Origin: Protoeuglena noctilucae
Lineage: Eukaryota
Direction: 5' to 3'
Assembly (NCBI GenBank): GCA_958009085.1
Contig: OY253669.1
Coordinates: 1,178,001-1,242,000 of the forward strand
Length of the DNA stretch: 64,000 bases
Below the pieces are notes generated by a model. It made no database searches, had not been told where the DNA came from, and worked only from the letters and a program-made list of their open reading frames with translations. Below, one piece after another: positions 10,688 through 38,843 of the stretch (within the stretch, counting starts at the first letter, position 1; the number at the start of each line of letters is the position of its first letter). Position numbers and translations under genes: made by a program.

Positions 10688-11725
10688 TCAGCTCCCACAG
10701 ACTCCGCACGGACTTTCCGGCCCACCTGGGTCCTCCTGTTGAGCCGGTGGGGTCCGGCCGAACGACGCCAGGCACGAGTAGTCGTCGTAGTTGGGCTGCA
10801 TGGTCAGTGGCACCCCCATGTACTTGCGGAAGTACTCCTGAGTCGGCACCTTGCACATGTTGATGCACACCGAGGCGCAGCCGCTCTCCTCCAGGTACCG
10901 ACACCGCTGCGAGGCCGAGAGGGGTGTCCATGGCATCACCACATGGGGGGTGGGAGCACGTGCGGCGCACGAGTCGCCCGCTGCGCACACCTTGATCAGA
11001 AGCCCGTTGCCCTTGCCCAACCTGCCCCCGTCCATCTCGACGTCCACCACCTCCGTCTCGCCCAGGAGCCACTGGCAAGTGAGCTGCACTCCCCACGCAT
11101 TGATCTGCATGCTCTGCTTGGCTAAGGGCCACGATACAAACACTGCAGGGAAGAGAAACGAGGAGGACGGCACGTTCACGCGTCTGCGTGGCCTCCCGCA
11201 TGGTCGACAAAGCCACCATGCTCGACACTCACTGGTGAACAGCGGGGGGATCCAGTGAGGGAAGATGGCTCGGCATACGTCGATCCCCGCCGCCTGCGCC
11301 GCGCTGGGCTGCGCGTGGCGCTCCGCGATCTGCTTCGTGAGGTCAAGGACCTTGTCGAACCCCTCCAAGTCCGACCCGTGCCCCAGAGTCTTTGACAAAG
11401 CATCCGCATAGTATCCTGTTGCCCACCGTATGCAGCGAAGAGAGAAGCCGAGGTTTCGGAGCCGCGTTCGCTCGAGCATGGCGATGCAGCGCCAAGAGCT
11501 TCGCCGTCGAGCCACCTTATTGAACGGATTGCCGTCTACGATTGAGTAGTCCGGTCTCGGGGTCGGAGGTCCTGCCTGATAAAAGCCTTCGCGGTCGACG
11601 CGCGCCCCATCAACGCCCTGCCATGGCCGCCATGTCGCGGGCAGCTGTGCGCGCGTGACGACCCCCTCTCGCCGCCAGCGGCGCCCTTCGAACGTCAGGC
11701 GGCAGGAGCACGCGCAGGCCTGCAT
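10688..11725 (-). CDS. D27: Beta-carotene isomerase D27-like protein (DUF4033)
   Basis: QLTCQWLLG; K|CRYLEESGCASVCINMCKVPTQEYF...GVPLTMQPNYDDYSCLASFG, with the conserved D27 cysteines; transit-like N-terminus. Confidence 0.9.
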   Translation of the reverse strand: MQACACSCRLTFEGRRWRREGVVTRAQLPATWRPWQGVDGARVDREGFYQAGPPTPRPDYSIVDGNPFNKVARRRSSWRCIAMLERTRLRNLGFSLRCIRWATGYYADALSKTLGHGSDLEGFDKVLDLTKQIAERHAQPSAAQAAGIDVCRAIFPHWIPPLFTSECRAWWLCRPCGRPRRRVNVPSSSFLFPAVFVSWPLAKQSMQINAWGVQLTCQWLLGETEVVDVEMDGGRLGKGNGLLIKVCAAGDSCAARAPTPHVVMPWTPLSASQRCRYLEESGCASVCINMCKVPTQEYFRKYMGVPLTMQPNYDDYSCLASFGRTPPAQQEDPGGPESPCGVCGS

Positions 11726-11993
11726 GGATCGCGACGCATGCGACGCGGAACTCGTCTTTGTGCTGCTGTCGGGAAATCAAGGTCTCTCCAGTGCGCTCTG
11801 TTCCAACGAAGCGGATTGCCTGCCTTTCCTACTGCTGTCGGCCCGCTCAGTGCTTGACTCTGCCGGCCAGTCGGGCACAAGCCCTGCGTTTCAGGCAGGC
11901 CCGCTCACCGCCTCTGCTCGCGGCGGCATCTATGCGATCATTTCGCGTGTAGCGAGCAAGCTGGTCGGGCTCGCGCTTCCGAATTTTGTTCTG

Positions 11994-25429: not shown

Positions 25430-25921
25430 TCAGGCCTTCCCAGCGCGCGTCCGTTCCTCGATCTGCTGGACCACCTGGGCACGGGCAGCGATCTGCCTCT
25501 CCCAATCCTCCGCGTACCGCTGGGCCGCGTTCCTGGTGGCTACCTGCGGGACAACCCGAGCTTTCTCGTAGAACGCGGTGGGTGGATCATCGCGGGGCCC
25601 AGCCGGGCAGGCGGGAGCTACCCGCGTTCTCCCTCCCCACGCATCCACCCCCGCAGCACCGCGCAGCAACAGCAGGCGTGTCGATCGTCCACGTCGCCGA
25701 AAAGCAAAAATGCATCGACGGACGAGGCGATTCGGCGTATCGAATGCTTGTGCTGTCAATTCGGGACGCAAAGGGGGCAACACGCGCTTCCCAGGCGTCG
25801 CTGTCGAGAGCGCGTCACGCGCCTGATAGAAATTAGTGTAGCACATGAACGCCTCCATGCATGCGCCCGCCAGGGCCGATGCACCAAACAGCTTCAGCAG
25901 GAATGAAGTGTCCCGGTGCAT
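25430..25921 (-). CDS. Small single-TM protein, SMIM4/UQCC5-like (~70 aa)
   Basis: MHRDTSFLLKLFGASALAGACMEAFMCYTNFYQ|VATRNAAQRYAEDWERQ...; the GAxMExFM..TxFY motif resembles SMIM4 homologues; GC-AG intron 25822-25544. Confidence 0.65.
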   Translation of the reverse strand: MHRDTSFLLKLFGASALAGACMEAFMCYTNFYQARDALSTATPGKRVLPPLRPELTAQAFDTPNRLVRRCIFAFRRRGRSTRLLLLRGAAGVDAWGGRTRVAPACPAGPRDDPPTAFYEKARVVPQVATRNAAQRYAEDWERQIAARAQVVQQIEERTRAGKA

Positions 25922-26071
25922 CGAGCTGTGAGAGGGCGCTCGGCTTCCAGTCGCGGATTGCGGCAGCTGCGTCCCGGCGACTGACGGGCCGGCGCCTTGG
26001 GCCAGGCTGACGAGCAAACAATTTCACACTGGCGCCCATGTGCAGCACGATGCACCACCACAAGCCTATCA

Positions 26072-28167
26072 TCATGCAGCAGCGCTCATGCGTCCCTCCC
26101 CCCTCCGGCGCTTGTTACAGCTCGGCTGCGCCAGGACAGCCTTCTTCTTCTCCACCTTGAGGACCACCCCCACGCCCACGACCGTCTTCAGGTCGCGCGC
26201 GGCGAAGCGACCCATGGCCTGACACTCCGCGTACGGCTCGACGCACAGGGGCCGTATGGGCCGCATGCGCACGAGACACACGTCGCCGGCCTGCACGAAC
26301 TCCGGATGGTCCTGAATCACCTCCCCCGTCTTGCGGTTCACGGTCGCCACGATCTCCTCGAACCGGCACGCCGTGTGGCTCGTGTGACAGTCGACAAGCG
26401 GCGTGTACCCCGTCACGATGCGGTTCGGGTGGTTCATGATCACCACCTGCGAGCGGGGTAGCCAGCTGAAGTCGTTTCTGTTTGCCATGCAATGGATGCA
26501 CCCAGCCCGACTGTTCGCGTCACGCTCGGCCCAGCCCTGTCCCACCTGGGCCAGGAAGGTGTCTACCACGTCCGCTGGGCTGGCGTCTGCGTCCGACGCC
26601 ACCATACCGCGGCGGAGGTCCTTGCACGAGACGCCTCGAAGGGAGAAGCCCACGTTCTGCCCCGGCCTGGCCACCTGGATGTCCGCGTGATGGATCTGGA
26701 TCGATGTGACCGTGCCCCTCAGGTCCCCGGGGGAGATCTTGACGTGCTGGCCGACGCGCAGCACCCCCGTCTCGACACGCCCCACCGCGACCGTCCCGAT
26801 CCCGGCAATCGTGTAGGCACCCTGCGCATCGATGTGGTCGGCCAAGGGTCCATGGCGACGAGCGCAGCACGGCAATCGCCCAAACCGGCGCAGCTGCCGC
26901 CTGCGGGCCGCACCTGAAGGGGGATGCGCAGCGGCAGGTGCTCGGCGCGCTGGGGCGTCCACAGGCGGTCGAGCGCCCCAGCGATGGTAGGCCCGTGGTA
27001 CCACGGCGCAGGGATGGGTTCTGTGAGGCCCTCGCCAGTCCACCCCGAGTAGGGGACGAAGGTCACTGGGAGAAGGGGCTCTCGCGGGTCAGTCGTGCGG
27101 CAGAGGTGGCGTGGCACCACCGCCTCTGCGGCAGCACTCGCCGCTCTCACCATTCTCCGGCAGGAACCCGCAGCGCCTGAGGAAGGGCGTGAGGATCCTC
27201 TGCACCTCCTCGAAGCGGTTGCGGTCCCAGGGCACGTTCAGGATGTCCATCTTGTTGACGCCGATGACGAGCTGCCGCACGCCCATCGTGTACGCAAGAA
27301 GCGCATGCTCCCTCGTCTGGCCCTTCTTGCCCGCCCCCGCCTCAAACGCGCCCTCCCGGGCGTCGATGACGAGCAGCGCTGCGTCCGCCTGGGGGAATAA
27401 CGGGCACAGGACCCCACTGTCACTGAACACCGGGGTGGCAAAGGGGCCTACTGTCGCCCAGCCAGGTGTACTCGCACCCCAACCAGGTGCACGCTCACCT
27501 GCGCGGCCCCGGTGATCATGTTCTTGACATAGTCCACGTGGCCAGGCGTGTCGACTATCTGGAACGTGTGGTGCTCCGTCTCAAACTGCAGCACGGGAGG
27601 GGACGGGACGGGCTGTGCACACGGGCGGGGAGGCAGGCGCGCCCACGCGCCTTGGCTCAGGACTCGCCTGCCGGACGCTGAAATCAATCGTGACGCCCCT
27701 CTCCCTCTCCGCCTTTAGCGTGTCCGTGACCTGCGCGCGTCGCAGGGGCGAGAATCTTTGCCGTGCTGCATGGCGGCATCGACTTGCGCCGCAGACCGCG
27801 AGGGACCGGACCGGTTGCGCAGGCAGCTCGTTGGCAAGACGATGTGTATATCTTTGCTACCGCGCGGGCCCTCCAGCGCGTCTGTCATGCGCATATCGAG
27901 GAACTGTGTTCCAACCCTAAAAGCTGGGACAGCCGCCGCGACGGCCCTGCCAGGGGCAGGGCAACCCCTTCACGCCGTGCAAAGCCTCACCCAGGCGTAG
28001 CTGAAGCTGCCCTTGCCCGCTACATTCGCCTCCCTTGCGAGCTTTTGTGCAGTTCGCTCATCGCAAGCCCCCAGCTGGAGGAGCAGGCGCCCGACGGTGG
28101 TGCTCTTCCCGGCATCGACGTGTCCGATGACTGCGAGACCCAGGTGGCCATCAGTGCCACCCTTCAT
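26072..28167 (-). CDS. Divergent elongation factor 1-alpha paralog
   Basis: G1 [24 protein letters not shown] and NKMD; EF-1alpha-type segments [53 protein letters not shown] and GRFAARD; about 6 exons, frame intact. Confidence 0.9.
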
Positions 28168-28516
28168 GGGCCCCCAGTCTCTACCTCGGCCTTGCAAGCT
28201 GCACGCTAGCCCTGCGGGCACGCGTCCAGCAGCTTTGGATTTCAAACCTGTTGTCCATCACATACACTGCGCGCGTCGCACTCACGGCCTCGTTGGCACC
28301 TCCTCACACCTGCGCTTGAAAGGCGTGCCGGCTCCTTCGCCCACACGCGCATCCTCGGGCAGCGACGACCCTAACCGGCAGTAGCTGTTGCTATGCATAC
28401 TGCGATGCACCGCTCAATGAGCCGCACACGTTCGGCTGGCGCGGGAACATTTCCCTAGGGCGTGGGGGAGCGGGTTGGGGAGAAAGTGCGGCTCGCAGAC
28501 GAGCGTCGACTGAGCC

Positions 28517-35325: not shown

Positions 35326-38300
35326 TCAGTGTGGTGGCTGCCGTGCCACCGATAGGCCATGCGATAGATAGCTTGTGAACGCTGTCCCGTATGCACAGTA
35401 AGTCACGCATCCATAAGAGCTTGCGACCATCGCGTGCCTACATCGGTTGCCGTCCGCGGCGAGGCCCCAGGGGTCCCTGGCCTGTAGCATGGGCGGAGAG
35501 GCTCGTGCCCATGAGAGGATGGTCTCGTATCGTGCTGCGCTGAGGGCCCACGAGGCGTCGCGCTCCATGCCCCTCCGCTGCAGCCCAGCCCAGGTGTCCG
35601 GCTCGCTGCTGTAGACGCGCAGTGCCTCGTCCAGGCTGTGCAGCATCGCGTCCTTGGTGCAGGGCATGAAGGTGAAACCGGTGCCGATGCTGTCCCATGG
35701 CTCACTGCGAGGGGCGCAGCGCAGAGAGGGGTGTGAGTGTTTGTGCCTTGTGACGGAGCGATGTGATTGGGCCGGCTCACTAGCGCTGGTGACCCGAGGC
35801 AGGTGACGGGCGGACAGGGCAAGGAGCTATCAGCAACCAACTTAAGGCAGGCAGCAGGTGTGACCATGGCTATTACTACGCAAAAACCGTGCGTTTCGCT
35901 CACTTGGCAAAAGGGCTCGCGTCCTCCACCGTGTCTCGCAGCCCGCCCACGCACGTGACCACGGGGATGGTGCCGTATCGCATGGCGTAGAGCTGGTTGA
36001 GGCCGCACGGCTCGAACCGCGAGGGCATGAGGAGCATGTCGCAGGAGGCGATGATGCGGTGGGCCATCTTGACGTTGAAGTCGACGATGCCGCGGAACAG
36101 GTCGGGGTTACGCTCCTGGAGAGGGAAGGGGGGGTGACGGGGTGTCGGCAGCAAAGGGGTGCGGCGCAGGGAGGGGCGACAGGAAGGACGCGCGATCCGG
36201 GATGCTGGGGCCTTGCACCTCCTGCACCCACTTCATGTGCCCCACATCTCATAGTAGATCATCTTCCCGCCCTCACCTGCGTCTCTCGCACCCACTTCTC
36301 GAGCCCCACGTCCCCCGACCCCAGGACCACGACCTGGCACCCCCGGGCGCACATCTCCGCCGCCGCCTCCAACAGCACGTCCGGCCCCTTCTGAGTGTCC
36401 AGCCGGCCGACCCACCCCACGAGGGGCATCCCCGCACTCACGGGCAGCTTCAGCTCCTGCTGCAGGCGCAGCTTGCACGCCTCCTTGCCGGCCAGGTTGC
36501 GTGCCGTAAAGGACTCGCCCCATAGGTGGGGGTCGTTCGCGGGGTCCCAGCTCTCCACGTCCACGCCGTTCACGACGCCGTTCAGGTCCAGCTCCCTCTG
36601 CGGGACAGGACGCACGACGAGGCACGGGTCGGACATTGGCAGGGCATGGGGTGGTGTGGCGCTCGAGCCTTGCGGTGATGTGCGAACACAGGCACGGGGG
36701 CCATAAGGAGGGCAAAGTGGTGCCTCTGCCAGCAGCATCGTCACCTTGGCGAGGATCTTCTCGAGGCCGTACCCGAAGGTGGGCGTCATGATTTCAGAGG
36801 CGTAGCCTTGCGACACGGTGACCAGGCGGTCGGCCGTCATCAAGGCCGCTTGCATGACGTTGACGGAGGTGCCGTTCTGAGTCGAAAATGGTAACTTAGA
36901 AGCCGTGTCAGGTGAAAGCGGGCGCGTGGCCGCTCAATCTGCCTGAGCTGCGAGTGAGCTGCGGGTGCGTTTGTGCCAACCCCAGTACGGGCGCGCGTGC
37001 TGCACGCACACACCTTGACGAATCGGAATCGGTCGAACCACTCGCGCGAGAGCCCGAACGCATTGAACGCCGACTCGGGGAACACGCCCTGGTACGCGAG
37101 GTTGTGGATGGCAAACACGGACCTGGCGTCCTGCGAGGGCATACCGTGGCTGACCGTGGCTGACTGTGGCTGACCGAAGCCCTGCAGCGCCGCCAGAGCT
37201 ATTTTGGGTGCGTCGATCCGCAAACGAGCAAAGAGCTCGCAGTCGTGGTCATTGCAAGCGACGCGGCAACGCTGGGAGCGTCGCTTGCGTGACGGTCTCA
37301 TCATCACCTTGTAGACGCCAGAGGGTCGGAAGCGCGACGCCAGGTACACCGGGACGAGTCCGGAGTGCCAGTCGTTGGCGATGAACACGCAGTCCTGCCC
37401 CATGACTTCGCGCAACAAGACACGGCCCGGGGTCGGGTCCGTACCATCGGGGTCGTCGGGGTCTGGAGCGTCCAGGGGCAGCACCAGGGGCACCTCCAGT
37501 GCCGCCAGACTGCGGGACGAGGGGCGGAGGGATGGGATGGGCTGTGGGGCGGCAGGGCAGATGTGGGTGCGTACTGACGGTATCCACCGTGGCAGAGGTC
37601 ATCGTGTCAGGCAGGCGATGCAGGGAGACTTATAGGAGGCTGGAGACATCCATGACACTTGGGAGCGGCTCGCCTGAAGAGCGCAAAGCGCCAGTGGTTG
37701 TCGTCGTAGTCCCGGCCATTGGCGCCATACAGGCCGCCCTTCCTGTGGAAGGCCGGGTGGTCGATGAACACGTACGACACTCCGTTCTTGCGGCAGTGGA
37801 AGAAGGAGACGGTCTGCTTGTCCCCGGGCTTGACCTCCAGTGTCTTTCGCATCCCCGTGTCCTCCAGGGCTTGCAACTCCGCGTCGCCCTTGCCGCCCGT
37901 GAGGTAGCGCGGCGTCACCACCACGACCCTAGAGGGGCAGAGATCGGTGGCGGGTTCACAGTGGCGTGAAGGAGCCGAGGGAGGGTGTCGTGCCATGCGT
38001 GGGGTGTACTAACAACTGCGGAAGCTGGAGGGGTCGCGTGCGCACCTGTGCCCGCGTGCAGCCAGCGCCTGGGGCAGCGCCCCGGCCACGTCGCCCAGGC
38101 CGCCTGTTTTGGTCCAGGGCGCCACCTCGGCAGCGACGAAGACGATCTTCATAGGGTCTGACGTGCGGGGCGGGGGCTTGCGGATGTGCCACCGCCGACG
38201 GAGCCGGGGAGGGGACGCGGTGGATGCGGAGGGATCGCTATCCTCCCACGACGGGTCGTCGGCCCGCGCAGCCTCCGCCGCGACGTCCCACGCCTGCGTA

Positions 38301-38843
38301 CCTAGTGTCGACGCGTCCGCTCCGCCCCATACCACCTCGTCGGCCGAGCTGGAGATCCCAGTAGCTGGGTAATATTGGTTTGATGGTGACGAAGCGGATT
38401 CACTGCGCGCCTCGCCGTCAGCTTCCGGCTCAGGAGGGACGAACTGTCCCGCACCGTCCTGCGTCCAGGCCACGCCGCTCGTTCGCCTTCGGCCACGCAA
38501 CGGCACCGCGTCTATAATGTCGATGGGAAGCAGTCAATCACGACCGCCCGCTTGCCTTGCTTCCCTCGAGACGCGCCATGAGGTCCGTCCATGCGTTGTG
38601 GAGGAGCCGCAGCTCCTCCTGCAGCCTCCTCTCATCTTCCTCCGCCTTGTCTCCCTCACCGCTGGGCTCATTGGTGTCGGGAGTGGCACACACCGCGAGC
38701 CTGGGCTTGGCGGGGCCGTTGGAATGCCATCGTGTCCGGATGTTCTGGACACGGGGCCGTACACCCCGCGGTAGCGACGAGGAGCAGCCCGCCCGCTCCG
38801 GCGAGGGCGGCCCCGTAGGACGTGCAAACGGGAGCGCCGACAT
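35326..38843 (-). CDS. Soluble starch synthase (SSI/SSII group, GT5)
   Basis: Transit peptide MSALPFARP...; [80 protein letters not shown]. The stop position is approximate. Confidence 0.95.

What the first reader, a model, noticed from the sequence alone, without database searches (positions are those of the whole stretch)
26072..28167. Intact but highly divergent EF-1alpha in a lineage expected to use EFL
Seen: the GTPase motifs are intact, but normally near-invariant domain II/III motifs are changed: LQDVYKIGG->[14 protein letters not shown]->IQIHH, PGDNVGFN->[18 protein letters not shown]->[10 protein letters not shown]. Established: most chlorophytes use EFL instead of EF-1alpha, and some eukaryotes carry EFL plus a divergent EF-1alpha. 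The acidic residues of QD and VEM line the aminoacyl-tRNA 3'-end pocket in EF-Tu/EF-1alpha. Inference: this is a dual-EF relic or a neofunctionalised paralog with impaired tRNA delivery.
Basis: partly seen in the sequence, partly recalled or inferred. Interest (0 to 1): 0.7.

Follow-up and report, generated by a model that had tools for sequence, protein, structure and literature searches.

The report
Divergent EF-1alpha gene in green alga
A marine green alga carries an expressed, intact but unusually fast-evolving copy of the protein that normally brings charged tRNAs to the ribosome, most likely a sidelined second elongation factor of a kind already known from other eukaryotes.

Summary
A seven-exon gene on the minus strand (28167..26072) encodes a 455-aa EF-1alpha-type GTPase. 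All six introns, one of them GC-AG, are confirmed by RNA contigs. The spliced product is identical to database protein P0002.

GTPase motifs are intact, and the model folds confidently as GTP-form EF1A. It is only about 50% identical to 206 canonical eEF1As, which share a median 76% with each other.

Profiles and four maximum-likelihood trees place it with eEF1A, not with eRF3, HBS1 or EFL. AU tests do not formally reject those alternatives. It has no N-terminal extension.

Only one close relative exists (P0127, 57%). It shares 20 of the derived residues, including a Glu-to-Gln change in the A76/aminoacyl pocket seen in no other group.

This matches the known "divergent EF-1alpha of dual-EF eukaryotes" (Kamikawa 2013), already reported in the green plants Mesostigma and Ulva prolifera. 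Whether EFL co-occurs here could not be tested, because no genome is held. Verdict: a new member of a known kind, of moderate interest.

The parts
26029..28268 (-). Transcribed region supported by RNA contigs (5' UTR about 100 nt, 3' UTR about 45 nt)
   Evidence: the X1 contig of 1518 nt lies on 26029-28268 and the X4 contig of 1490 nt on 26033-28250. Both have 0 other letters and skip all six introns.
27991..28167 (-). Exon 1 (residues 1-59), with start ATG 28167-28165 and the P-loop GHVDAGKST at 28099-28125
   Evidence: Pfam GTP_EFTU and TIGR00483 hits.
28258..28260 (-). In-frame TGA upstream of the start codon, inside the mRNA. It closes the reading frame, so there is no eRF3/HBS1-type N-terminal extension.
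   Evidence: the stop-to-stop frame begins at 28257; sequence; the X1 contig is continuous to 28268.
27731..27990 (-). Intron 1, 260 nt, GT-AG
   Evidence: Joint seen in X1, X4 and X5.
27668..27730 (-). Exon 2 (residues 60-80), switch I region with T73
27586..27667 (-). Intron 2, 82 nt, with a non-canonical GC-AG donor
   Evidence: GCGAGT..CAG. joint 27585/27668, 'CT..GC', in X1 and X4. The alternative GT donor would delete 3 residues and is not seen in RNA.
27499..27585 (-). Exon 3 (residues 81-109), with DTPGH (G3, catalytic His96) at 27538-27552
27389..27498 (-). Intron 3, 110 nt, GT-AG
27151..27388 (-). Exon 4 (residues 110-189, last codon split), with NKMD (G4) at 27245-27256
27066..27150 (-). 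Intron 4, 85 nt, GT-AG, phase 1
26914..27065 (-). Exon 5 (residues 189-239), with G5 SGW. It ends with ..LRIPLQ.
26822..26913 (-). Intron 5, 92 nt, GT-AG
26546..26821 (-). Exon 6 (residues 240-331), domain II. Gly240 (GGT, 26819-26821) replaces the invariant Asp. Gln281 (CAG, 26696-26698) replaces the invariant Glu.
   Evidence: (GTP_EFTU_D2).
26447..26545 (-). Intron 6, 99 nt, GT-AG. It is in frame and free of stops, so ORF-based gene callers read through it (database protein P0001).
   Evidence: Joint seen in X1, X4 and X5.
26072..26446 (-). Exon 7 (residues 332-455 plus stop TGA 26072-26074). It holds domain III (GTP-eEF1A_C) and a basic C-terminal tail, residues 438-455, predicted to be disordered.
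   Evidence: PF22594, 109 bits; pLDDT below 50 for residues 438-455.

Best explanation
This is a nuclear, spliced and transcribed gene for a divergent EF-1alpha (eEF1A-type) GTPase of a marine green alga of prasinophyte grade.

Shown:
- The protein keeps the full three-domain EF1A fold and every GTP-binding and GTP-hydrolysis motif.
- It has been evolving several times faster than canonical eEF1A.
- It forms a two-member clade with one other sequence (P0127).
- The two share old derived changes that have since been conserved. One is Glu281-to-Gln, at the residue that in EF-Tu stacks on A76 of the tRNA. Another is loss of the neighbouring Asp240.

Inferred:
- It still cycles as a GTP switch on the ribosome or on an EF1A partner.
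- It is no longer the cell's main aminoacyl-tRNA carrier. That job is presumably done by EFL, as in other prasinophytes.
- The gene is kept for a subset of EF-1alpha functions or for a remodelled one.
- The domain II surface that binds both the aminoacyl end and the exchange factor eEF1Balpha was released from constraint.

That makes it a further example of the 'divergent EF-1alpha of dual-EF eukaryotes'.
For: Gene and expression:
- The 7-exon model equals P0002.
- All 6 introns are bridged by RNA contigs from one study, and 2 of the 6 by a second study.

Family:
- Pfam finds GTP_EFTU, GTP_EFTU_D2 and GTP-eEF1A_C.
- Against solved structures, eEF1A scores 479 bits, aEF1A 470, eRF3 300, Hbs1 292 and EF-Tu 135.
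- Against my own subfamily HMMs, canonical eEF1A scores 587.5, archaeal 499.9, HBS1 453.5, eRF3 437.6 and EFL-type 356.4.
- The AF2 model has pLDDT 91.4 and matches GTP-form aEF1A/eEF1A at TM 0.92-0.98 and rmsd 1.0-1.2 A.

Tree (careful search, 28 rows, LG+C20 PMSF):
- The P0002+P0127 pair has 100/100 support.
- The pair sits in an 11-row set with 8 canonical eEF1As and the Allomyces divergent EF-1alpha, at 89/93.
- A starred split (97/95) separates it from archaea+eRF3+HBS1.

Divergence:
- Median identity to 206 canonical eEF1As is 50%, against 76% among those sequences themselves.
- It keeps 139 of 191 invariant columns. Globisporangium, a Pythium-group oomycete, keeps 135 and Allomyces 114.
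- TIGR00483 gives 530.7 bits against 709-737 for canonical sequences and 520.7 for Globisporangium.

Maintenance:
- Of the 52 changed invariant columns, 41 are also changed in P0127, and 20 of those to the same residue. Seven other divergent EF-1alphas, one EFL-type and one archaeal sequence share only 6-9 of the 52.
- E281Q is found only in P0002 and P0127.

Not obviously a top-expressed gene (weak evidence):
- Codon bias is Nc 37.5, within the 27.8-39.3 range of four neighbouring gene segments.

Literature:
- Divergent, weakly transcribed EF-1alpha co-occurs with EFL in diatoms, oomycetes, goniomonads, apusomonads and fungi, and was predicted for Viridiplantae (PMC3699394, abstract and passages).
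- Co-maintenance occurs without eEF1Balpha in Ulva prolifera and others (PMC3938643, passages).
- Mesostigma encodes both factors (PMC7027972, passage).
Against: - EFL, a canonical EF-1alpha and eEF1Balpha could not be looked for in this organism. No genome is held, and the one metagenome scan returned only archaeal and bacterial loci. Co-occurrence, the defining trait of the dual-EF class, is therefore untested.
- Transcript abundance relative to EFL or tubulin is unknown. The runs are assembled contigs that cannot rank genes.
- AU tests do not reject a sister position to eRF3+HBS1 (p 0.193 under LG+F+G4; p 0.059 under PMSF). They also do not reject a sister position to the EFL-type pair (p 0.473; p 0.156).
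- The protein passes the curated cut-off of NCBIfam subfamily NF008969 (530.7 against 502). It misses the TIGR00483 equivalog cut-off by only 9.4 bits.
- It keeps the domain III motif [15 protein letters not shown] and His283/His284, so a working tRNA carrier is not excluded.
- Asp240-to-Gly also occurs in EFL-type sequences.
Confidence: 0.6

Rival explanations
1. It is the organism's only or principal translation elongation factor. On this reading it is a fast-evolving but fully functional eEF1A that still delivers all aminoacyl-tRNAs.
For: All GTPase motifs are intact and the EF1A fold is confidently predicted. It passes the NF008969 cut-off. It is transcribed in runs of two studies. No EFL or second EF gene has been shown for this organism. 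EFL-type proteins tolerate Gly at the Asp240 position.
Against: It has lost 52 of 191 residues that are at least 97% invariant in 206 canonical eEF1As. These include Glu281, which is kept in canonical, archaeal and EFL-type sequences and in the other divergent EF-1alphas examined. Its sister P0127 has additionally lost Tyr242, His284 and Asn295 of the same pocket. Codon bias is no stronger than in neighbouring genes. Sampled prasinophytes use EFL (PMC2652445, passages).
Confidence: 0.17
2. It is a neofunctionalised carrier. The conserved remodelling of the acceptor-end pocket (Glu to Gln, Asp to Gly/Ala, a less acidic pocket) adapts the GTPase to a different cargo. That cargo could be a particular or unusual aminoacyl-tRNA, deacylated tRNA, or a tRNA-mimicking protein of the Pelota/eRF1 type, as archaeal aEF1A carries.
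For: Twenty derived residues are shared by two proteins that are otherwise only 57% identical, including E281Q, which is unique to the pair. The best structural matches include aEF1A-GTP bound to Pelota, 3wxm. Dom34/Pelota binding is regarded as an ancestral EF1 trait (PMC4342817, passage). From memory only: an engineered EF-Tu for phosphoseryl-tRNA also carries Asp-to-Gly at this position.
Against: No partner or cargo is indicated by any result here. The divergence is spread evenly over all three domains, not focused on the pocket, which fits relaxed constraint as well. Only two members are known.
Confidence: 0.13
3. It is a member, or the sister, of the eRF3/HBS1 surveillance GTPases, or of EFL, misread as EF-1alpha.
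For: AU tests do not reject these placements. It carries the P-loop variant GHVDAGKST, with Ala, as the eRF3 representative P0207 does.
Against: It is never placed there in 4 of 4 ML trees with all groups sampled. eRF3+HBS1 form a 100/100 clade without it. Profile scores are 134-231 bits lower than for canonical eEF1A. It keeps 139 of 191 eEF1A-invariant residues, against medians of 96 for eRF3, 103 for HBS1 and 124 for EFL-type. It has no N-terminal extension.
Confidence: 0.04
4. It is a decaying relic on its way to loss, with no remaining function.
For: The rate of change is high, the codon bias is ordinary, and the 'ratchet' model predicts degradation of eEF1A once EFL is present (PMC3938643, passages).
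Against: The reading frame is uninterrupted across 7 exons and the mRNA is precisely spliced. The model has pLDDT 91.4. All catalytic motifs are intact. An orthologue is retained in a second, distant lineage with 20 shared derived residues.
Confidence: 0.06

Closest known systems
Divergent EF-1alpha of dual-EF eukaryotes: Thalassiosira and other diatoms, Pythium/Globisporangium, Goniomonas, Thecamonas, Spizellomyces (Kamikawa et al. 2013, PMC3699394)
   Same: It is an eEF1A-type protein with intact GTPase motifs and a long branch. The numbers are almost the same as for the Globisporangium polare protein P0145. Invariant residues kept are 139 against 135 of 191. TIGR00483 gives 530.7 against 520.7 bits. 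The canonical-eEF1A HMM gives 587.5 against 588.1 bits.
   Different: Co-occurrence with EFL and low transcript level, the two features that define that class, are untested here. The derived residues are largely its own, with only 7 of 52 shared with P0145. E281Q is not seen in the 3 named divergent EF-1alphas compared. The divergence therefore arose independently.
Green-plant cases of EF-1alpha plus EFL: Mesostigma viride (Wang et al. 2019, PMC7027972) and Ulva prolifera (Atkinson et al. 2014, PMC3938643)
   Same: These are Viridiplantae in which an EF-1alpha gene persists in a lineage otherwise known for EFL.
   Different: I saw only the passages stating co-occurrence, not their sequences or figures. 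Whether those EF-1alphas are as divergent, or related to this clade, is unknown. None was among the close hits: only P0127 exceeds 53% identity.
Canonical eEF1A (for example PDB 5LZS, 8G5Z, 1F60)
   Same: It has the same three-domain fold (TM 0.92-0.95 to ribosome-bound eEF1A) and the same G1-G5 motifs. The domain III motif and the His-His of VEMHH are conserved.
   Different: Identity is 47-53%, against a median 76% among canonical sequences. It has 52 of 191 invariant residues changed, including Asp240, Glu281, Asp294, Asn201 and Thr420. It scores below the TIGR00483 equivalog cut-off.
EFL (elongation factor-like)
   Same: It is a eukaryotic EF1-family GTPase of similar length. Both have Gly in place of the Asp of QDVYK.
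   Different: The EFL-type clade (P0218, P0277, P0129) is 100/100 supported without it. Identity is 39%. The HMM score is the lowest of the five subfamilies. Caveat: I labelled these three sequences as EFL from recalled signatures (an insertion between G3 and G4, length about 475 aa). No named EFL record was retrieved, and searches gave no name.
eRF3 and HBS1
   Same: They are EF1-family paralogues with the same fold (TM 0.87-0.90) that have given up aminoacyl-tRNA binding.
   Different: They have long N-terminal extensions, a separate 100/100 clade, and 37-39% identity.
Archaeal aEF1A
   Same: PDB sequence scores are almost as high as for eEF1A (470 against 479 bits). It is also the best Foldseek match (3vmf, TMt 0.98).
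   Different: It has spliceosomal introns and host-like GC. It lies on the eukaryotic side of the 97/95 split. It keeps more eEF1A-invariant residues than archaeal sequences do (139 against a median of 118). The similar scores reflect its loss of eukaryote-specific residues, not archaeal origin.

Membership tests
EF-1alpha / eEF1A (TIGR00483, NF008969) | Three-domain architecture: Tr-type G domain, beta-barrel domain II, eEF1A-type domain III | tested here: met
   Pfam PF00009, PF03144 and PF22594. AF2 pLDDT 91.4. Foldseek TM 0.92-0.98 to aEF1A/eEF1A.
EF-1alpha / eEF1A (TIGR00483, NF008969) | Intact G1-G5 motifs and catalytic His | tested here: met
   GHVDAGKST 15-23, T73, DTPGH 92-96, NKMD 154-157 and SGW 195-197.
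EF-1alpha / eEF1A (TIGR00483, NF008969) | Score at or above the curated family cut-off | tested here: inconclusive
   the TIGR00483 equivalog gives 530.7 bits against a cut-off of 540.1 (missed). The NF008969 subfamily gives 530.7 against 502 (passed). Canonical eukaryotic controls score 709.5 and 737.4.
EF-1alpha / eEF1A (TIGR00483, NF008969) | Conservation of residues that are near-invariant in canonical eEF1A, including the aminoacyl/A76 pocket (the Asp of QDVYK, the Glu of VEMHH) | tested here: not met
   It keeps 139 of 191, with D240G, E281Q and D294Q. The pocket role of these residues is recalled from the EF-Tu ternary-complex structure. Register comes: the piece's residue 2 aligns to EF-Tu residue 228.
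EF-1alpha / eEF1A (TIGR00483, NF008969) | Phylogenetic placement within eEF1A | tested here: inconclusive
   It is placed with eEF1A at 89/93 and in the quick trees. AU tests do not reject the alternatives.
EF-1alpha / eEF1A (TIGR00483, NF008969) | GTP-dependent delivery of aminoacyl-tRNA to the ribosome | not testable with these tools
   This needs biochemistry.
Divergent EF-1alpha of dual-EF eukaryotes (Kamikawa 2013) | EF-1alpha much more divergent than in EF-1alpha-only relatives | tested here: met
   The stem plus end branch is about 1.0, against 0.11-0.34 for canonical rows.
Divergent EF-1alpha of dual-EF eukaryotes (Kamikawa 2013) | EFL gene in the same genome | not testable with these tools
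   No genome is held. The window has only this EF locus. The metagenome scan was uninformative.
Divergent EF-1alpha of dual-EF eukaryotes (Kamikawa 2013) | Transcript level far below that of EFL | not testable with these tools
   Only assembled contigs were available, and these cannot rank genes. Codon bias is ordinary, which is a weak hint only.
EFL | Groups with EFL sequences and scores best against an EFL profile | tested here: not met
   It lies outside the 100/100 EFL-type pair. The EFL HMM gives 356.4 bits against 587.5 for canonical. AU sisterhood is not rejected (p 0.156). The EFL label of the reference sequences is recalled, not confirmed by a name.
eRF3 / HBS1 | N-terminal extension before the G domain | tested here: not met
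   The start is 14 residues before the P-loop, and an in-frame TGA lies 91 nt upstream, within the mRNA.
eRF3 / HBS1 | Groups with eRF3 or HBS1 | tested here: not met
   The eRF3+HBS1 clade is 100/100 without it. Holding the query with them costs 17.4 lnL, p-AU 0.059 under PMSF, and 10.5 lnL, p 0.193 under LG+F+G4. The clades were labelled by PDB matches: P0207 to eRF3a at 519 bits and P0221 to Hbs1l at 687 bits.

The most novel reading that the evidence does not exclude
P0002 and P0127 define a small, previously undescribed EF-1alpha subfamily in marine green picoeukaryotes. On this reading, its acceptor-end pocket was rebuilt once (Glu281 to Gln, loss of Asp240) and has since been conserved. 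The GTPase would then be not a fading relic but a dedicated carrier for a non-standard cargo: a special aminoacyl- or deacylated tRNA, or a Pelota/eRF1-like protein. That would be a third, independent specialisation of eEF1A besides eRF3 and HBS1.
Probability: 0.12. Interest if true: 0.6.

Novelty: new member of a known kind. Interest (0 to 1): 0.35.

Why it matters
The patchy, nearly exclusive distribution of EF-1alpha and EFL is a long-standing puzzle. Organisms that keep both are the informative intermediates.

A prasinophyte-grade green alga with a maintained, expressed, divergent EF-1alpha would add a data point inside the Viridiplantae, where the ancestral state (EF-1alpha, EFL or both) is unresolved (Cocquyt 2009). 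It also offers a natural pair of sequences in which the A76/aminoacyl pocket has been altered and then conserved. That pair is a convenient test of what a sidelined EF-1alpha is kept for.

As it stands the case is a further example of a described phenomenon. Its key premise, that EFL is present, is unverified.

Tried and rejected
- Whole-genome search for EFL, canonical EF-1alpha and eEF1Balpha: impossible, because no genome is held.
- tblastn of P0002, an EFL-type protein and a plant-type EF-1alpha against the window, and a Pfam scan of 150 of the 159 window ORFs of at least 170 aa (the last nine of the sorted list, including the EF frames already scanned, were left out for the 150-protein limit): only this one EF locus was found.
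- Metagenome scan with the P0002+P0127 alignment: the patterns caught archaeal EF1A (42-47% identity) and bacterial GTPases. Neither P0127's contig nor any new relative was recovered, so dN/dS and intron comparison with P0127 could not be done.
- Earlier notes of this scan: nothing on this genome. The two look-alikes, a Hadarchaeota EF1A paralogue and cysN, share 3 of 107 words and do not bear on this finding.
- Protein atlas: P0002's nearest cluster is a Streptophyta-dominated EF-1alpha cluster (0.99), a lead only. The look-up for P0218 did not yield an EFL name.
- Contig depth as expression. In X1 the EF contig has depth 25.9 and the neighbouring gene's contig 36.9. In X4 the figures are 19.1 and 17.7. 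The tool states that such depths cannot rank genes, so I draw no conclusion from them.
- Careful tree of 48 rows: not finished after 469 s. It was replaced by a 28-row careful tree.
- treekit AU test on the 48-row quick tree: it returned a likelihood difference of about 0 and p 0.49. This is implausible for a different topology, and I treat it as an artefact of the resumed search. The 28-row repeat gave 17.4 lnL and p 0.059.
- IQ-TREE '-fast' searches gave constrained trees better than the free tree and were discarded. Two runs ended at the time limit.
- Rejected ideas. Archaeal or horizontally acquired origin: it has spliceosomal introns, introns at 68% GC like the window, and a eukaryotic-side placement. 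Pseudogene: it has an intact, spliced frame and a conserved orthologue. The alternative GT donor for intron 2: not used in RNA.
- Complex prediction was not used, because no partner sequence from this organism is available.
Full report
**What is there**

The window is 64-72% GC throughout. On the minus strand between 28167 and 26072 lie seven exons. Their borders I read from the sequence and joined in a script.

- The exons are 28167-27991, 27730-27668, 27585-27499, 27388-27151, 27065-26914, 26821-26546 and 26446-26072.
- Five introns are GT-AG. Intron 2 (27667-27586) is GC-AG.
- The 455-aa product is identical to a protein already in the public collection, P0002, seen on 5 contigs of at most 1520 nt.
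- RNA contigs of two marine metatranscriptome runs of one study (X1, 1518 nt; X4, 1490 nt) lie on the locus with 0 mismatches and skip exactly these six introns.
- A run of a second study (X5) shows two of the six joints. A DNA run (X7) covers the introns.
- The mRNA reaches at least 28268. An in-frame TGA at 28260-28258 closes the frame upstream of the ATG, so the protein starts 14 residues before the P-loop.

**Family**

- The exon translations hit Pfam GTP_EFTU, GTP_EFTU_D2 and GTP-eEF1A_C, and the NCBIfam EF-1alpha models.
- Against solved structures P0002 scores 479 bits to mammalian eEF1A, 470 to archaeal aEF1A, 300 to eRF3a, 292 to Hbs1l and about 135 to EF-Tu.
- With the NCBIfam equivalog TIGR00483 (cut-off 540.1) it scores 530.7. 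Two canonical eukaryotic EF-1alphas score 709.5 and 737.4, and two archaeal representatives 563.2 and 517.7. The Globisporangium protein scores 520.7, Allomyces 423.5, an EFL-type protein 442.0, eRF3 372.1 and HBS1 401.1.
- An AlphaFold2 model has mean pLDDT 91.4 and pTM 0.88. Only residues 1-5 and the C-terminal tail 438-455 are unconfident.
- The model superposes on GTP-form aEF1A and ribosome-bound eEF1A at TM 0.92-0.98 and rmsd 1.0-1.2 A.

**How divergent, and who is related**

- A full scan of 1.84 billion representatives found one relative above 50% identity, P0127 (58%, 534 aa, from a 4651-nt metagenome contig). Everything else was at or below 51-52% over partial matches.
- A profile search of 5.8 billion clusters with the P0002+P0127 alignment again found only P0127 (57%). 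Canonical EF-1alphas followed at 45-53%.
- For the comparisons I kept only proteins that cover at least 380 residues of the query. That was 220 of 274 and 334 of 511.
- I defined 'canonical' as at least 70% identity to a plant-type, an Aureococcus or a fish EF-1alpha. This gave 206 sequences.
- These share a median 76% identity (minimum 64%) with each other. P0002 shares a median 50% (maximum 52%) with them, and P0127 a median 44%.
- Of 191 columns at least 97% invariant in the 206, the numbers kept are:

| Sequence or group | Kept of 191 |
|---|---|
| P0002 | 139 |
| P0127 | 121 |
| Globisporangium polare protein | 135 |
| Allomyces | 114 |
| EFL-type | 124 |
| Archaeal (median) | 118 |
| HBS1 (median) | 103 |
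| eRF3 (median) | 96 |

- Subfamily HMMs built from these groups score P0002 at 587.5 (canonical), 499.9 (archaeal), 453.5 (HBS1), 437.6 (eRF3) and 356.4 (EFL-type). This is almost the same profile as the Globisporangium protein: 588.1, 483.4, 410.3, 399.4 and 327.7.

**Phylogeny**

- Four trees were built: FastTree on 136 rows, IQ-TREE quick PMSF on 67 and 48 rows, and a finished careful search on 28 rows (LG+C20+F+G4 PMSF).
- All four join P0002 and P0127 with full support, and all keep them outside the eRF3, HBS1 and EFL-type clades.
- In the careful tree the pair lies in an 11-row set with the 8 canonical eEF1As and the Allomyces protein (89/93).
- A 97/95 split separates that side from archaea+eRF3+HBS1. 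eRF3+HBS1 are 100/100 and the EFL-type pair is 100/100.
- The eRF3 and HBS1 clades were named from PDB matches.
- The EFL label of P0218, P0277 and P0129 rests on my recollection of EFL signatures. No named EFL record was obtained.
- The position is not statistically secure:

| Constraint | Model | lnL cost | p-AU |
|---|---|---|---|
| Query held with eRF3+HBS1 | LG+F+G4 | 10.5 | 0.193 |
| Query held with EFL-type | LG+F+G4 | 2.2 | 0.473 |
| Query on the archaeal side | LG+F+G4 | 2.3 | 0.534 |
| Query held with eRF3+HBS1 | PMSF | 17.4 | 0.059 |
| Query held with EFL-type | PMSF | 8.0 | 0.156 |

- An earlier test on 48 rows gave a zero likelihood difference, which I regard as an artefact.
- The assignment to eEF1A type therefore rests on the trees together with the profile scores, the invariant-residue counts and the missing N-terminal extension.

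**Residues and likely mechanism**

- All nucleotide-binding and catalytic motifs are present.
- The 52 lost invariant residues are spread over the G domain (24 of 98), domain II (11 of 43) and domain III (17 of 50).
- In domain II, the piece starting at Gly240 aligns so that its residue 2 pairs with EF-Tu residue 228. This puts Gln239/Gly240 opposite EF-Tu Glu226/Asp227.
- By motif correspondence, Gln281 sits at the Glu of (G)VEM. From memory of the EF-Tu:Phe-tRNA structure, these residues line the aminoacyl pocket, and the Glu stacks on A76.
- Asp240 is 100% conserved in canonical eEF1A. However, it is Gly in 4 of 5 EFL-type sequences, so its loss alone is not disabling.
- Glu281 is conserved in 100% of canonical, 88% of archaeal and 4 of 5 EFL-type sequences, and in the Globisporangium, Allomyces and Vexillifera proteins. 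It is Gln only in P0002 and P0127.
- P0127 has further lost Tyr242, His284 and Asn295 of the same pocket.
- Of the 52 changes in P0002, 41 are also changed in P0127, and 20 of those to the identical residue. Nine other sequences share only 6-9 of the 52.
- These changes are therefore old and have been kept in two lineages that differ at 43% of positions.
- I infer a GTP switch that still folds and cycles like EF1A, but whose acceptor-end surface is no longer under the canonical constraint. The same surface docks eEF1Balpha in yeast. The title of Andersen 2000 was seen in the reference list; the details are recalled.
- This fits the 'ratchet' picture, in which eEF1A and eEF1Balpha drift once EFL does the work (PMC3938643, passages).

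**Expression level**

- Transcription and correct splicing are shown. Abundance is not.
- The contigs' depth figures are of the same order as those of the adjacent gene's contig, but the tool warns that they cannot rank genes.
- Codon bias (GC3 0.866, Nc 37.5) is within the range of four neighbouring gene segments (Nc 27.8-39.3). This is not what one expects of the principal elongation factor, but it is weak evidence.

**Host and the EFL premise**

- The window also encodes a GT5 starch synthase, a D27-like carotenoid isomerase, thioredoxins, Rab geranylgeranyltransferase beta, MIF4G, formin, HECT and AAA proteins.
- The best named relatives of the geranylgeranyltransferase are green algae and plants. 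Pedinophyceae, Mantoniella, Chloroparvula, Micromonas and Chlamydomonas are at 52-55% identity, and land plants mostly at 45-50%. None is close.
- The RNA runs that hold the transcript are marine.
- The host is therefore a marine green alga without a close named relative in these results.
- Prasinophytes sampled so far (Ostreococcus, Nephroselmis, Tetraselmis) have EFL (PMC2652445, passages). So 'expected to use EFL' is reasonable, but it is not demonstrated for this organism.
- No genome is held. The window has no second EF locus.

**Comparison with the literature**

- Divergent, weakly transcribed EF-1alpha genes co-occurring with EFL are described for diatoms, oomycetes, goniomonads, apusomonads and fungi. 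Viridiplantae were named as a place to expect more (PMC3699394, abstract and passages).
- Ulva prolifera is listed among organisms that keep both factors without eEF1Balpha (PMC3938643, passages).
- Mesostigma viride encodes both (PMC7027972, passage).
- Three literature searches turned up no description of this protein or of an EF-1alpha in prasinophyte genomes. They cover only the open-access library held here.

**Verdict**

The shared, conserved Glu-to-Gln change is the one feature that goes beyond earlier descriptions.

Noticed in passing
window 27586-27667 (minus strand): Intron 2 of the EF gene uses a GC-AG splice site (CAG|GCGAGT...CAG), confirmed by RNA contigs. One of the six introns in this gene is non-canonical.
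   Followed up: yes
window 28181-28263 (minus strand, 5' UTR): There are two upstream ATGs in the 5' leader. An in-frame ATG at 28263-28261 is followed at once by TGA (a start-stop). An out-of-frame ATG at 28258-28256 opens a short uORF that, by eye, ends at a TAG around 28183-28181. Only the longest RNA contig (X1, to 28268) includes them. The X4 contig starts at 28250.
   Followed up: partly
window 26447-26545 (minus strand): Intron 6 is 99 nt, in frame and free of stop codons. ORF-based gene callers therefore read through it, giving database protein P0001 (257 aa). This makes the locus look like a 338-aa open frame.
   Followed up: yes
window 27753-27782 (intron 1): In DNA run X7 the assembly breaks here. 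Three contigs with depths 305, 516 and 47 overlap on only this 30-nt stretch, and one has an AT-rich loose end. This suggests a short repeated element or an assembly junction inside intron 1.
   Followed up: no
P0127 residues about 58-115: The only close relative carries a Pro/Ala-rich insertion of about 60 residues right after the P-loop helix. P0002 lacks it. It is probably an unspliced intron in an ORF-based prediction from a 4651-nt metagenome contig.
   Followed up: no
window 25822-25971: A separate transcript contig (X1, 2168 nt; X4, 656 nt) ends at 25971, about 60 nt from the 3' end of the EF mRNA (26029), with a splice or loose end at 25822. The neighbouring gene has no Pfam match in the ORFs scanned.
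   Followed up: no
window 36262-38533 (minus) and 10691-11776 (minus): GT5 starch-synthase fragments lie in three frames (a multi-exon gene), together with a D27-like beta-carotene isomerase. Both are plastid-lineage genes that support a green-algal host.
   Followed up: partly
Protein representatives P0148, P0150, P0154, P0155, P0157, P0160, P0177, P0195, P0240 and others: The public collections hold many further long-branch EF-1alpha-like proteins of 430-480 aa. Named ones include Vexillifera abyssalis, Arcella intermedia, Aspergillus sergii and Allomyces macrogynus. Divergent EF-1alpha paralogues appear far more widespread than the taxa listed in the 2013-2014 surveys.
   Followed up: partly
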